Below are positions 62,189-64,000 of a stretch of DNA of 64,000 nt, one piece after another (within the stretch, counting starts at the first letter, position 1; each line of letters begins with the position of its first letter). Under the pieces are notes generated by a model that saw only the letters and a program-made list of their open reading frames with translations, made no database searches and was not told the origin of the DNA. The position numbers were made by a program, and so were the translations under genes. The stretch comes from Candidatus Uhrbacteria bacterium (GTDB taxonomy: Bacteria; Patescibacteriota; Patescibacteriia; GWA2-47-26), in the NCBI GenBank assembly GCA_016187515.1, contig JACPJN010000006.1, positions 257,556-321,555 on the forward strand, read 5' to 3'.

Positions 62189-64000
62189 ATGCAAAAATAT
62201 GATCACAAGAAAATAGAAAAAAAGTGGCAGAAACGCTGGGAAAAGGAAAGCGTGTTTGCGGCCAAGGATTTTATCAAGCAGCCAACATTTTACGCGCTGG
62301 TGGAGTTTCCCTATCCTTCCGGAGAGGGCTTGCATGTTGGCCATCCGCGTTCTTATACGGCGATGGATATTGTCGCGCGTAAGCGGAGAATGGAAGGATA
62401 TAATGTTTTGTATCCGATTGGATTTGATTCGTTTGGATTGCCCACGGAAAATTACGCGATAAAAACCGGACGGCCGCCGGCGGAAATAACGCGCGAGAAC
62501 ATCGCCAATTTTACACGGCAGTTAAAAATGCTCGGTTTTAGTTTTGACTGGGCCCGGACTGTAACGACCAGCGACCCGGCGTATTATAAATGGACGCAAT
62601 GGATTTTTTTGCAATTGTTTAAACACGGACTAGCGTACAAAAAAAAGATGGCAATTAATTGGTGTTTGTCTTGCAAAATCGGTTTGGCTAATGAAGAAGT
62701 AGTGGACGGCGCCTGCGAGCGCTGTGGCGCGTCGGTTGAAAAGCGCGAAAAAGAGCAATGGATGCTCGCGATTACCAAATACGCTGACAAATTACTCGAA
62801 GGTCTTAAAGAAGTGGACTATATTGAGCGCGCGAAGGTACAGCAGGAAAATTGGATTGGACGGAGCGAAGGAGCCATTTTGAAATTCCAAATTACAAATC
62901 CCAAATCACAAACAAATTCCAAATCTCAAATTCCAAATTCCAAACTTGAGATTGAAGTGTTTACCACACGCCCTGATACGCTTTATGGGGCGACATATTT
63001 GGTGCTGGCGCCGGAGCATCCGGTGATTGGAAATTTGAAATTAGAAACTAGAAATTTGAAAGAAGTGGCGAAATATATAGAGATAGTGAAAAAGAAAACG
63101 GAAGCGGAGCGGATGAGTGTGGAGCGCGAGAAAACTGGGGTGGAACTCAAAGGAATAAAAGCAATAAACCCGGCAACCAAAGAAGCAATTCCGATTTGGG
63201 TGGCGGATTATGTGCTTGCCGGATATGGCACTGGCGCGATCATGGCCGTCCCGGCGCATGACGAGCGGGATTTTGAGTTTGCGAAAAAGTATAATCTTCC
63301 CGTGAGACATGTAGTAATGCCGAGTCTTGTTGATGGAACAAACCCGCCGAAGGACGGAAAGGAAGATACCTTTCGCAATATGATTCTCGCGATTCTGTAT
63401 GACCCGAAGGCGAATAAATATCTTACCTTGAAATGGAAGACACAGCCGTGGAGAACATTTGTCACAGGCGGCATTGAAGAAGGAGAAGATTCGGCGGCAT
63501 CGGCGCGCCGAGAGATTGCCGAAGAAACCGGATACACCAACGTGCGTTTAGTTAGAAGCTTAGGTATGACCGAGGCATTTTTCTTTGCGGCCCATAAAAA
63601 CGTGAATCGCAAAGTTCATGGGAACCACTTTTTGTTCGAGCTGATAGATGACACGCGAGTATCTATCAGCGACAAAGAAAAAGACCAGTACGATATCCAG
63701 TGGCTCTCTCCTGAAGAGCTGCGCGCGACGCATATGCAGCATGCCGAATTTGATATTCTTTGGGACCGTATTCAAACTGGCAGCGATGTATATACAGGTC
63801 CAGGCATTCTCGTAAACTCTGGGCAGTTCAATGGACTAGAACATGAAACCGCCAAATGGAAAATCACCGAAGCAGTGGGTGGTCAGCGAAAAGTTACCTA
63901 CAAACTCCGCGATTGGGTGTTTTCCAGGCAAAGATATTGGGGCGAACCCATCCCGCTGGTGTTCTGCGAACACTGCGCGGGAATAACCAATAACCAAGAA
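62189..64000 (+). CDS. leuS: leucyl-tRNA synthetase (partial, continues past the window) carrying an embedded Nudix hydrolase domain and an in-frame repeat insertion
   Basis: Class I HIGH motif ([12 protein letters not shown]), FDSFGLP, a zinc knuckle, [43 protein letters not shown], then about 150 aa with a perfect Nudix box [23 protein letters not shown], then [15 protein letters not shown]…[16 protein letters not shown]. Confidence 0.9.
   Translation, partial: [604 protein letters not shown]
62879..63060. repeat. split hairpin repeat (CAAATTCCAAAT family) in-frame in leuS, with the two arms flanking a conserved catalytic-core segment
   Basis: The left arm gaaattccaaattacaaatcccaaatcacaaacaaattccaaatctcaaattccaaattccaaac is at 62879-62943. 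The right arm ggaaatttgaaattagaaactagaaatttgaaag is at 63026-63060. The LeuS segment [28 protein letters not shown] lies between them. Confidence 0.6.

What the first reader, a model, noticed from the sequence alone, without database searches (positions are those of the whole stretch)
62879..63060. In leuS the two complementary arms of a hairpin repeat are separated by 80 nt that encode a universally conserved catalytic segment
The left arm (62879-62943, translated [21 protein letters not shown]) and the right arm (63026-63060, translated [11 protein letters not shown]) are reverse-complementary in pattern (ttccaaattt… against …aaatttggaa). Between them lies the invariant LeuS block [26 protein letters not shown]. 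Either a hairpin element inserted and the conserved exon segment was then recovered within its loop, or two half-elements inserted independently. Either way the mRNA can form a long-range stem around a core-coding segment, which could affect translation or stability.
Basis: seen in the sequence. Interest (0 to 1): 0.55.

Follow-up and report, generated by a model that had tools for sequence, protein, structure and literature searches.

The report
Repeat-element arm inserted in leuS
The "split hairpin" in the leucyl-tRNA synthetase gene of this Candidatus Uhrbacteria genome is one arm of a widespread heptamer-built repeat element, inserted in frame in a variable loop, lying 82 nt upstream of an ordinary native helix-coding stretch that resembles its complement; the mRNA does not form a meaningful stem around the editing-site motif.

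Summary
Both tracts exist as described: about 9 tandem CAAATTC units at 62882-62944 and about 5 GAAATTW units at 63026-63061. They are 24/32 complementary and lie 82 nt apart, around the codons for [11 protein letters not shown]...APEHP.

They are not two halves of one hairpin. The left tract is a full-length left arm of a dispersed hairpin-element family. A profile built from 131 metagenome copies matches it at E 4e-13. A complete hairpin copy sits in this genome's 23S rRNA gene. The arm adds 13 residues to a hypervariable loop and keeps a ~10-nt stub of its own right arm.

The right tract is no insertion. It has the same length in every LeuS compared and keeps the conserved motif; the structure model is confident there (pLDDT 95-96). 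The family profile does not recognise it (E 5).

The mRNA-strand duplex is unremarkable (-12.7 kcal/mol, z -0.8; regional fold z +0.55). Left loops from other CPR genomes complement this right tract as well or better.

One oddity remains. The right tract's synonymous sites are far more 7-periodic than peptide and codon usage predict (P ~1e-4), as in 10 of 13 CPR LeuS genes. Left and right tracts within one gene often share a unit family. Local templated copying is therefore not excluded.

The parts
62189..64000 (+). 5' part of leuS (603 of 989 codons). Both tracts lie at the start of the CP1 editing domain.
   Evidence: Translation. Exact full-length protein P0001, Candidatus Uhrbacteria. Pfam PF13603 editing domain from residue 220, PF00133, and a NUDIX insert.
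62880..62944 (+). Left tract: an in-frame, full-length left arm of a dispersed hairpin-element family built of CAAATTC-type heptamers, with an irregular signature CCAAATCACAAACAAATTC. It encodes (K)[20 protein letters not shown], a net +13 residues. It contains no G and is unstructured as mRNA.
   Evidence: TRF. 84% gapless identity over 66 nt to the left arm of the 23S hairpin. nhmmer with a profile of 131 metagenome copies gives E 3.7e-13 over model positions 2-66 of 69. 13-residue gap against PDB 2v0c. Low-confidence loop in the AF2 model. Fold z -0.5.
62943..62953 (+). Stub of the element's own right arm (AACTTGAGATT), complementary to 62922-62932. It merges into the native codons for (L)EIE.
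   Evidence: Inverted repeat I14, 91% over 11 nt with a 10-nt loop. It is the only helix in the centroid fold. It aligns with the start of the right arm of the 23S copy.
62954..63025 (+). Native core: codons for [25 protein letters not shown], the threonine-rich editing-site motif of CP1. GC is 0.54, like the rest of the gene.
   Evidence: Invariant in the alignment of 120 relatives. Aligned to T. thermophilus LeuS. Composition.
63026..63061 (+). Right tract: native-length coding segment for [13 protein letters not shown](V), the loop and start of a helix after APEHP. It is written as about 5 GAAATTW heptamers. It is not an element arm.
   Evidence: TRF. No insertion against relatives or PDB 2v0c. 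pLDDT 95-96. Family profile E = 5. Codon log-likelihood ordinary, 22nd percentile. Its 7-nt periodicity is 0.71 against 0.46 +/- 0.07 in synonymous recodings, P ~1e-4.
2646..2777 (.). Complete hairpin copy of the same element family inside the 23S rRNA gene (gene on the - strand). It serves as the reference for what both arms look like when adjacent.
   Evidence: Rfam LSU 647-3549. Profile hits to the left arm (E 9.6e-13) and the right arms (E 1.7e-4 and 1.1e-3). Fold -34.3 kcal/mol, z -5.2.
63982..64000 (+). Start of a further heptamer tract (AATAACC) in leuS that continues beyond the window. Recoding tests find five tract clusters in the whole gene.
   Evidence: TRF. L081 6285-6314. Synonymous-recoding scan finds clusters at codons 231-250, 279-292, 597-610, 681-703 and 861-880.

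Best explanation
Two unrelated things sit 82 nt apart.

(1) Left tract. It is one arm of a small dispersed hairpin element whose arms are made of tandem CAAATTC-like heptamers. The arm, plus a ~10-nt stub of its partner arm, lies in frame in the hypervariable beta-hairpin loop just before the TTRPDT editing motif of LeuS. It lengthens that loop by 13 residues.

It most likely arrived by homology-assisted copying from another copy (inferred). The element's 5' end, AAATTCCAAATT, is the same as the native K-F-Q-I codons, so the junction is a stretch of identity. It persists because this arm is open in all frames, has no G so does not fold in the mRNA, and lies in a surface loop that tolerates almost anything in relatives.

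(2) Right tract. It is the ordinary, structurally ordered segment after APEHP, present at the same length in all LeuS. Its N/L/K/E/I-rich motif is inherently AAATT-rich. In this lineage, as in most CPR LeuS genes, its synonymous sites have in addition become 7-nt periodic.

Both tracts are AAATT-type heptamers with a palindromic AATT core, so they look reverse-complementary (75%). They are not the two arms of one insertion, and the mRNA does not form a significant stem around the core. No function needs to be invoked. The insertion behaves like selfish or mutational baggage tolerated by the protein, as with Rickettsia palindromic elements.
For: Shown:
- The left tract is a family member. It is 84% identical without gaps to the 23S copy, including the irregular unit. 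The 19-nt signature occurs in at least 120 metagenome contigs. The profile gives E 3.7e-13.
- Full copies of the family are hairpins. 63 of 122 have a partner of at least 19/24. The 23S copy folds at z -5.2.
- The left tract is a +13 aa insertion in a loop whose length and sequence vary freely among 120 relatives. In the model it is a low-confidence loop between two strands.
- Its own right-arm stub is adjacent.
- The right tract shows no length change, keeps the conserved motif (also K..I.N[WFY].E[VI] in Firmicutes), has pLDDT 95-96, has ordinary codon likelihood, and is not recognised by the family profile.
- There is no significant mRNA structure.
- The cross-genome null shows that any AAATT-type left loop is 15-19/20 complementary to this right tract.
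- Lone arms and native-length tracts are common elsewhere in the window, for example trxB 32896-32937 with no gap against PDB 5uth.
- The sequence is identical in two independent assemblies.

Inferred: the homology-assisted mode of arrival, and the reasons only the left arm persists.
Against: - The right tract's nucleotides are not explained by peptide plus codon usage alone. Periodicity has P ~1e-4, and complementarity to the left arm over 32 nt has P 0.008.
- In other CPR lineages, left and right tracts of leuS are coupled more than expected. L001 is inverted, 18/20, P 0.004. L006 is inverted with a different unit, 17/20, P 0.04. L205 is direct, 20/20. L084 is direct, 17/20.
- L001 carries the same left element at the same codon (86% nt identity), although its LeuS is only 60% identical to this one, rank 74 of 119. 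This coincidence asks for a target preference or a local mechanism.
- The mode of insertion is not demonstrated. No target-site duplication or transposase was identified.
Confidence: 0.6

Rival explanations
1. Local templated copying. The two tracts are mechanistically linked. A tract at one permissive site seeds a copy at the neighbouring permissive site about 80-100 nt away, in inverted or direct orientation. The route would be template switching, quasi-palindrome correction or short-patch conversion during replication or repair. This overwrites tolerant codons without necessarily changing length. On this reading the leuS pair is a footprint of that process, not of a single hairpin insertion.
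For: - Same-family left/right pairs occur in 5 of 6 CPR leuS genes that have both tracts. Three are inverted: this window, L001 at 18/20 with sense duplex z -5.7, and L006 at 17/20 with the unrelated unit AGACTTC/GAAGTCC. Two are direct: L205 at 20/20 and L084 at 17/20.
- Coupling at synonymous sites has P 0.004-0.04 in those lineages, and P 0.008 here over 32 nt.
- Native-length tracts exist: the right tract here, and trxB.
- Other tracts in the same genes belong to other families.
Against: - Here the left arm is a full-length copy of an imported family sequence. It is not a reverse copy of the right tract, to which it is only 75% complementary.
- The right tracts of this window and of L001 are not recognised as family arms (E 5 and 1.8).
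- With the shorter definition of the right tract, complementarity here is as expected from the peptide (15 against 14.3, P 0.41).
- The cross-genome null reaches 19/20.
- Only 15 CPR leuS genes were available as DNA.
Confidence: 0.25
2. Functional long-range RNA structure. The two tracts pair in the leuS mRNA, or in an antisense transcript, to bracket the editing-motif codons. This would affect translation speed, co-translational folding of CP1, or stability, and would be maintained by selection, with covarying units in different lineages.
For: - Inverted pairs with different unit sequences in three lineages look like covariation.
- The L001 sense duplex is -22.7 kcal/mol, z -5.7.
- Here the antisense-strand duplex is -26 to -36 kcal/mol, z -3.8 to -6.3.
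Against: - In this window the sense duplex is -12.7 kcal/mol, z -0.8, and the regional fold is z +0.55.
- The left arm has no G, and the regular mismatch is C.A.
- Two lineages have the tracts in direct orientation, which cannot pair.
- Most relatives, including the 73 closest, have no left tract at all.
- There is no evidence of an antisense transcript.
Confidence: 0.05
3. One hairpin element inserted once and the conserved core now lies in its loop; or the whole pattern is chance low complexity with no repeat element involved.
For: - Arms of this element family can be far apart with cargo between them. Arm-to-partner distances run from 14 to 630 nt in metagenome copies. In this window, 51290-51330 and 51497-51529 flank a small ORF.
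Against: - The sequence between the tracts is the universal TTRPDT...APEHP core, present in all LeuS at this position.
- The right tract is not an insertion.
- Pure chance is excluded for the left tract (profile E 3.7e-13) and for the right tract's periodicity (P ~1e-4).
Confidence: 0.02

Closest known systems
Rickettsia palindromic elements (RPE) and other bacterial MITE-like repeats fused in frame to genes (Ogata et al. 2000; reviewed in PMC2229807)
   Same: A small dispersed hairpin-forming repeat found in intergenic regions, inside conserved protein-coding genes in frame, and inside RNA genes. It is tolerated in surface-exposed parts of essential enzymes and needs no function.
   Different: - The arms here are built of tandem 7-nt (elsewhere 8-nt) units.
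- The family is not restricted to one genus: the signature occurs in at least 120 metagenome contigs.
- Only one arm is present in leuS.
- No terminal inverted repeat, TA target or target-site duplication was identified.
- Native-length tracts also occur without any insertion.
Heptanucleotide tandem repeats of bacteria: cyanobacterial STRR (own knowledge), TAACTGA direct repeats of Beggiatoaceae, Cyanobacteria and Bacteroidetes (PMC4679880), and heptameric SSR enrichment (PMC4692102)
   Same: Tandem 7-nt units are strongly over-represented relative to other periods. The same unit turns up in phylogenetically distant genomes with no known transfer mechanism.
   Different: - Those repeats are mainly intergenic direct arrays, often just upstream of start codons.
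- Here the tracts form paired inverted arms (hairpins) and lie inside coding and rRNA genes.
- The unit sequences differ.
- No copy-number variation was seen between two samples.
23S rRNA intervening sequences carrying an S23p / 23S_rRNA_IVP (Avd-like four-helix-bundle) ORF, e.g. Coxiella burnetii IVS (PMC4990558)
   Same: Long complementary arms flank a small PF05635-type ORF. The same arm families also sit in the 23S rRNA gene of this genome. In this window, 51290-51529 shows arms around a truncated IVP-like ORF. Metagenome copies L112 and L159 carry a full four-helix-bundle gene after the left arm.
   Different: - The leuS copy has no cargo and only one arm.
- The cargo-bearing copy in the window is intergenic, not in rRNA.
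- RNase III processing was not tested.
Coding palindromes in mitochondrial genes of Nematomorpha (PMC6649704)
   Same: Inverted repeats embedded in protein-coding genes, with both arms translated.
   Different: Those are long perfect palindromes with adjacent arms inside the genes. Here the two tracts are imperfect, 82 nt apart, and only one is an insertion.
Quasi-palindrome template-switch mutagenesis (own knowledge: Ripley 1982; Lovett laboratory work in E. coli)
   Same: It offers a mechanism by which two nearby, partly complementary segments become more complementary without selection. This is relevant to the rival explanation.
   Different: It is not known to generate 7-nt periodic tracts or direct copies. 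Nothing here demonstrates it.

Membership tests
Single inserted hairpin element whose two arms flank the core (split hairpin) | Both arms are absent from orthologs, that is, both are insertions | tested here: not met
   The left arm is +13 aa. The right tract has no net length change against 119 relatives or PDB 2v0c.
Single inserted hairpin element whose two arms flank the core (split hairpin) | Both arms are recognisable as the two arms of one repeat family | tested here: not met
   nhmmer with the family left-arm profile on both strands gives E 3.7e-13 for the left tract and E 5 (3.4 bits) for the right tract. The 23S copy gives both arms: 9.6e-13, then 1.7e-4 and 1.1e-3.
Single inserted hairpin element whose two arms flank the core (split hairpin) | The arms pair significantly in the transcript | tested here: not met
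   Fold z +0.55. Sense duplex z -0.8, rank 457 of 6372.
RPE-like / MITE-like in-frame palindromic repeat | Dispersed multi-copy family with conserved sequence | tested here: met
   A second copy lies in the 23S gene (84% over 66 nt). The signature occurs in at least 120 metagenome contigs. L001 leuS has an 86% identical copy.
RPE-like / MITE-like in-frame palindromic repeat | Full-length copies form a long stem-loop | tested here: met
   The 23S copy folds at -34.3 kcal/mol, z -5.2. 63 of 122 metagenome copies have a partner of at least 19/24 downstream.
RPE-like / MITE-like in-frame palindromic repeat | Inserted in frame in a conserved protein gene with the reading frame kept | tested here: met
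   The leuS ORF is intact at 989 aa and identical in three assemblies. tsaD carries five whole hairpins in frame.
RPE-like / MITE-like in-frame palindromic repeat | Terminal inverted repeats with a target-site duplication or TA target; a partner transposase | not tested
   No TSD is evident at the leuS junctions by eye. The left junction is a stretch of identity with native KFQI codons. No systematic search for TSDs or a transposase was done.
RPE-like / MITE-like in-frame palindromic repeat | Sequence homology to the Rickettsia RPE families | not tested
   No comparison with RPE sequences was run, so homology was not tested. Two indirect observations argue against it: the arms here are built of tandem heptamers and the organism is Candidatus Uhrbacteria. 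The leuS element is therefore filed as 'works like', not as a member of RPE.
Heptanucleotide simple-sequence repeats (STRR / TAACTGA type) | Tandem array of 7-nt units | tested here: met
   TRF gives period 7 with 9.4 and 5.1 copies. Periods 7 and 8 are the only ones enriched.
Heptanucleotide simple-sequence repeats (STRR / TAACTGA type) | Copy-number instability (slippage) between strains or samples | tested here: inconclusive
   Two Logan assemblies and the window are 100% identical over 6.3-10.4 kb. The samples may hold the same population.
Heptanucleotide simple-sequence repeats (STRR / TAACTGA type) | Pure in-situ expansion of one unit with no defined higher-order sequence | tested here: not met
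   The left arm has a defined 66-nt sequence (2 x 32 nt, with an irregular 4-nt unit) shared with the 23S copy, with L001 and with metagenome copies.
rRNA-IVS-type element (stem arms around a PF05635 ORF) | Complementary arms flank an S23p/IVP ORF | tested here: not met
   This does not apply to the leuS copy, which has the universal core between the tracts. It is seen elsewhere in the window at 51290-51529, with a sub-threshold PF05635 hit (E 4.5e-4, 20.9 bits against a cut-off of 33.8).

The most novel reading that the evidence does not exclude
CPR (Patescibacteria) genomes are subject to a so far undescribed DNA-level process that writes 7-8-nt periodic tracts into genes. It would overwrite tolerant coding segments without changing their length, and copy tracts to nearby sites in either orientation. 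On this reading, the complementary tracts around the LeuS editing motif, seen here and independently in L001 and L006 (with direct versions in L205 and L084), are footprints of templated 'heptamerisation' and not of chance or classical transposition. The Avd-like 23S_rRNA_IVP protein, the only recurrent cargo of these elements, could be part of the machinery.
Probability: 0.2. Interest if true: 0.8.

Novelty: new variant of a known kind. Interest (0 to 1): 0.42.

Why it matters
As stated, a hairpin split around a catalytic segment that forms an mRNA stem, the finding does not hold and would not matter.

What lies underneath is more interesting. An essential, universally conserved enzyme of a reduced CPR genome carries, in frame, an arm of a repeat element that is spread through many metagenomes. 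The same loop is hit in other lineages by the same or other heptamer families. This gives a CPR counterpart to the Rickettsia RPE story, and a handle on how small genomes tolerate, or generate, such insertions.

The unexplained part is also directly testable with more genomes. It has three pieces:
- Enrichment is confined to periods 7 and 8.
- Native-length codons are 7-periodic at synonymous sites in most CPR LeuS genes.
- Neighbouring tracts tend to share a unit family.

If a dedicated mechanism exists, it would be a new source of protein-sequence change in these organisms.

Tried and rejected
Only 8 loci were CPR. The Firmicutes loci were reused as negative controls.
- L020 turned out to be a fold-back (palindromic) contig, so its duplicated tracts were ignored.
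- An Rfam scan at gathering thresholds found only the 23S rRNA and five tRNAs. No RNA family covers the tracts.
- Literature searches did not find a description of these elements. The searches covered heptamer repeats or hairpins with CPR, Patescibacteria or Parcubacteria, inverted repeats within protein-coding genes, and IVS proteins. Only the analogues listed under closest known turned up.
- I considered that the right tract's AT-richness reflects abnormal codon choice. This was rejected: its codon log-likelihood is at the 22nd percentile. The recoding test then showed that the specific choice of TTA, ACT and AGA makes it 7-periodic.
- I considered common ancestry of the left arm in this genome and L001. 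This was rejected. The two LeuS are 60% identical on 908 conserved columns, 73 of the 119 compared sequences are closer to this LeuS than L001 is, and none of the other 119 retrieved relatives carries the left arm. Flanking synonymous sites also differ.
- I considered an assembly artefact. This was rejected: the window and two independent assemblies are identical.
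Full report
WHAT IS THERE. The window comes from a Candidatus Uhrbacteria (CPR/Patescibacteria) genome. The leuS product is identical to a 989-aa NCBI protein. The same DNA was assembled independently from two sequencing runs and is 100% identical over 6.3-10.4 kb. leuS starts at 62189 and runs off the window.

- 62882-62944 is a tandem array of about 9.4 heptamers (CAAATTC type), encoding [21 protein letters not shown].
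- 63026-63061 is an array of about 5.1 heptamers (GAAATTT/GAAATTA/GAAACTA), encoding [11 protein letters not shown].
- Between them lie the codons for [29 protein letters not shown].

Pfam places both tracts at the start of the LeuS editing (CP1) domain. TTRPDT is its threonine-rich motif. The best inverted repeat is 32 nt, 75% complementary, with 82 nt between the arms.

IS IT MORE THAN CHANCE? As a sequence pattern, yes.
- In 64 kb only one other segment is at least 24/32 complementary to the left arm. That segment is the right arm of a hairpin in the 23S rRNA gene.
- The window holds 31 tracts of tandem 7- or 8-nt units, against 0-1 in shuffles and at most 1 for any other period from 4 to 11.

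As an RNA structure, no.
- Folding 62850-63080 gives z = +0.55.
- The duplex between the two tracts on the mRNA strand is -12.7 kcal/mol, z -0.8. 39 of 200 shuffles do as well, and it ranks 457 of 6372 windows tested against the left arm.
- The left arm contains no G and is unstructured on its own (z -0.5).
- Only the antisense strand pairs well (-26 kcal/mol, z -3.8), because the recurring mismatch is C.A on the sense strand.

THE LEFT TRACT IS AN ARM OF A DISPERSED HAIRPIN ELEMENT.
- It aligns without gaps, at 84% over 66 nt, to the left arm of a hairpin in this genome's 23S rRNA gene. The alignment includes an irregular unit, CCAAATCACAAACAAATTC. The 23S copy continues directly into its complementary right arm and folds at -34.3 kcal/mol, z -5.2.
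- Those copies share the flanking arm sequence. They are mostly intergenic.
- In about half of them a complementary right arm of at least 19/24 follows, 14-630 nt downstream. Sometimes cargo lies between the arms, such as a four-helix-bundle (23S_rRNA_IVP-type) gene.
- A profile HMM of 131 such left arms hits the window at the leuS left tract (E 3.7e-13, model positions 2-66 of 69) and at the 23S left arm (9.6e-13). On the opposite strand it hits the 23S right arms (1.7e-4, 1.1e-3).
- In leuS the arm is followed at once by AACTTGAGATT, which pairs 10/11 with 62922-62932 and aligns with the start of the 23S right arm. This is a stub of the element's own partner arm.

Relative to T. thermophilus LeuS (PDB 2v0c) the tract is a 13-residue insertion. 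Among the 120 closest LeuS proteins this loop varies freely in length and sequence, and only this protein has the CAAATTC-type tract. An AlphaFold model of residues 195-400 puts the insert in a lower-confidence loop (pLDDT 62-74) between two strands.

THE RIGHT TRACT IS NATIVE.
- It aligns with no net length change to all relatives, and with a one-residue difference to 2v0c.
- Its peptide fits the family motif xNLK[SL][EQ]I[KT]N[WL]xEV. A related motif, K..I.N[WFY].E[VI], is present even in Firmicutes LeuS.
- The model is very confident there (pLDDT 95-96).
- Its synonymous-codon likelihood is ordinary, at the 22nd percentile.
- The element profile does not recognise it (E 5, 3.4 bits).

WHY THEY LOOK COMPLEMENTARY. 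Both tracts are AAATT-type heptamers, and the AATT core is its own complement. I paired left loops and right segments from 15 CPR leuS genes across genomes. This shows the effect is generic:
- This window's left arm is 16/20 complementary to the right segment of L001 and 18/20 directly similar to that of L003.
- The native-length left loop of L206 (ISNFQFP) is 19/20 complementary to this window's right tract.
- The within-gene value here is 15-16/20.

WHAT REMAINS ODD. The right tract's nucleotides are not fully explained by its peptide.
- Among 20,000 synonymous recodings drawn from this genome's codon usage, 7-nt periodicity averages 0.46 +/- 0.07 against 0.71 observed (P ~1e-4). The best 32-nt complementarity to the left arm averages 19.4 against 24 observed (P 0.008).
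- The same excess periodicity is present in 10 of 13 CPR leuS genes, with lineage-specific units: AATCTCA x3 in L003, AATTATC x4 in L020, AAGTCCG-type in L006.
- The test is calibrated. Non-CPR leuS genes give 0-0.4% significant windows, while this leuS has five discrete clusters.

Left and right tracts of one gene also often share a unit family.
- Inverted: L001 (same left element, 86% identical at the same codon; right unit GAATTTG; 18/20; sense duplex z -5.7) and L006 (AGACTTC/GAAGTCC, 17/20).
- Direct: L205 (20/20) and L084 (17/20).
- L001 is not a close relative. Its LeuS is 60% identical on conserved columns, rank 74 of 119.

Native-length tracts are not unique to leuS. The octamer tract in trxB aligns without a gap to PDB 5uth. 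The five whole hairpins in tsaD, by contrast, are net insertions against PDB 3zet.

MOST LIKELY MECHANISM. Shown:
- The left tract is a copy of an element arm in a tolerant loop.
- The right tract is native.
- There is no significant mRNA stem.

Inferred:
- The arm was acquired by homology-assisted copying. The element's 5' end, AAATTCCAAATT, equals the native K-F-Q-I codons, and relatives without the insert also read KF[QK][VI] there.
- Only the G-free arm, open in all frames, survived. A complete right arm of the 23S type would bring TAA into this frame.
- The insertion is neutral baggage, as proposed for RPEs (PMC2229807).

The main rival is local templated copying between the two permissive sites, in either orientation. 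It explains the coupling seen in other lineages and the periodic synonymous sites, but it is not needed for, and only weakly supported by, this window's own pair. A selected long-range RNA structure is unlikely, because direct-orientation cases exist, most relatives lack the left tract, and folding shows no signal here.

COMPARISON WITH KNOWN SYSTEMS.
- The closest analogue in behaviour is the Rickettsia palindromic element: a hairpin repeat inserted in frame in conserved proteins and in RNA genes (PMC2229807).
- The heptamer build recalls cyanobacterial STRR (own knowledge) and the TAACTGA repeats of Beggiatoaceae, Cyanobacteria and Bacteroidetes (PMC4679880; PMC4692102).
- The cargo-bearing forms recall 23S rRNA intervening sequences with an S23p ORF (PMC4990558).
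- Coding palindromes are known in nematomorph mitochondria (PMC6649704).

I found no paper describing heptamer-armed hairpins in CPR genes in the held library. That is absence in that library, not proof of novelty.

VERDICT. The background phenomenon is a new variant of a known kind and deserves a proper census.

Noticed in passing
whole window; e.g. 842-925, 1398-1491, 2652-2745 (23S rRNA gene 647-3549, - strand); 12570-12634, 12710-12791, 12974-13044, 13205-13287, 13406-13460 (tsaD); 26902-26977; 33666-33700 and 33835-33904 (gdh): There are 31 tracts of tandem 7- or 8-nt units, and no other period is enriched. Most are arranged as hairpins from a few unit families (GCATAGA/CTCTATG, TAGGTACG, GACTAAGC, AGTTCAC, CAAATTC). 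They lie inside the 23S rRNA gene and in frame inside essential protein genes. tsaD carries five of them, about 100 extra residues compared with PDB 3zet.
   Followed up: partly
51290-51330 and 51497-51529, with ORF 51322-51495 (- strand): Strongly complementary GCATAGAGC-type arms (RNA duplex about -40 kcal/mol, z -8; regional fold z -3.5) flank a 58-aa ORF. The ORF matches the C-terminal half of PF05635, the 23S rRNA-intervening-sequence (Avd-like four-helix-bundle) protein, at E 4.5e-4, below the curated cut-off. It lies between a ruvC-like and a galT-like gene. This is a genuine split-arm configuration with cargo. Some metagenome copies of the CAAATTC family (L112, L159) carry a full gene of this type after the left arm.
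   Followed up: partly
32896-32937 (trxB), also 16031-16070, 14084-14120, 41841-41871, 43009-43049: These are lone tracts without a partner arm inside coding genes. The trxB octamer tract (AACTTAAT x4.6, encoding KLNNLITKSLNNL) aligns without any gap to a solved thioredoxin reductase (5uth). Periodic tracts can therefore occupy native-length variable segments and need not be insertions.
   Followed up: partly
63383-63733 (LeuS residues 399-515): A NUDIX hydrolase domain (PF00293, E 3e-13, Nudix box [23 protein letters not shown]) is inserted in LeuS after the editing domain. Nearly all of the 120 closest LeuS proteins, all from Patescibacteria-type sources, also carry PF00293. Two close partial relatives (P0025, P0031) do not.
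   Followed up: no
26710-26753 and 27352-27395 (ORF 26712-28121): Two direct copies of a perfect CTACTTA x4.3 tract lie 640 nt apart in a membrane protein gene. Each encodes (L)LLLTTYYLL at the start of a hydrophobic segment. The first copy overlaps the start codon.
   Followed up: no
32442-32513 (trxB residues 89-112) and about 27870-27950 (ORF 26712-28121): There are G+C-rich in-frame inserts of another repeat type: PPNLPSGRGGNKPISPPFQGGVRGG in trxB and PPLTLRGGDKTIPPLKVRGGGGSY in the membrane protein. The trxB insert is absent from solved thioredoxin reductases (gap in the alignment to 5uth).
   Followed up: no
L162 (metagenome contig Ga0114944_1063012), about 1200-1290: A lone left arm of the same CAAATTC element (IKFQITNSKLQINSKFQIT) sits in a glutamate dehydrogenase gene. 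It is at the same position (after WMTDEY) where this window's gdh carries a hairpin of a different unit family (33666-33700). This suggests shared hot spots in homologous proteins.
   Followed up: no
hairpins listed: In protein-coding genes the hairpin is usually weaker on the sense RNA strand than on the antisense strand (for example tsaD 12974/13009: -21 against -43 kcal/mol; leuS -12.7 against -26). In the 23S rRNA the sense strand is the stronger one. The mismatches are C.A on one strand and G.U on the other. The sample is small.
   Followed up: no
L020 (contig JAHJJO010000063.1): This public contig is a fold-back: tracts at 1130-1177, 3222-3259 and 3284-3334 reappear as exact reverse complements at 5758-5805, 3676-3713 and 3601-3651. 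It is probably an assembly artefact at a hairpin.
   Followed up: no
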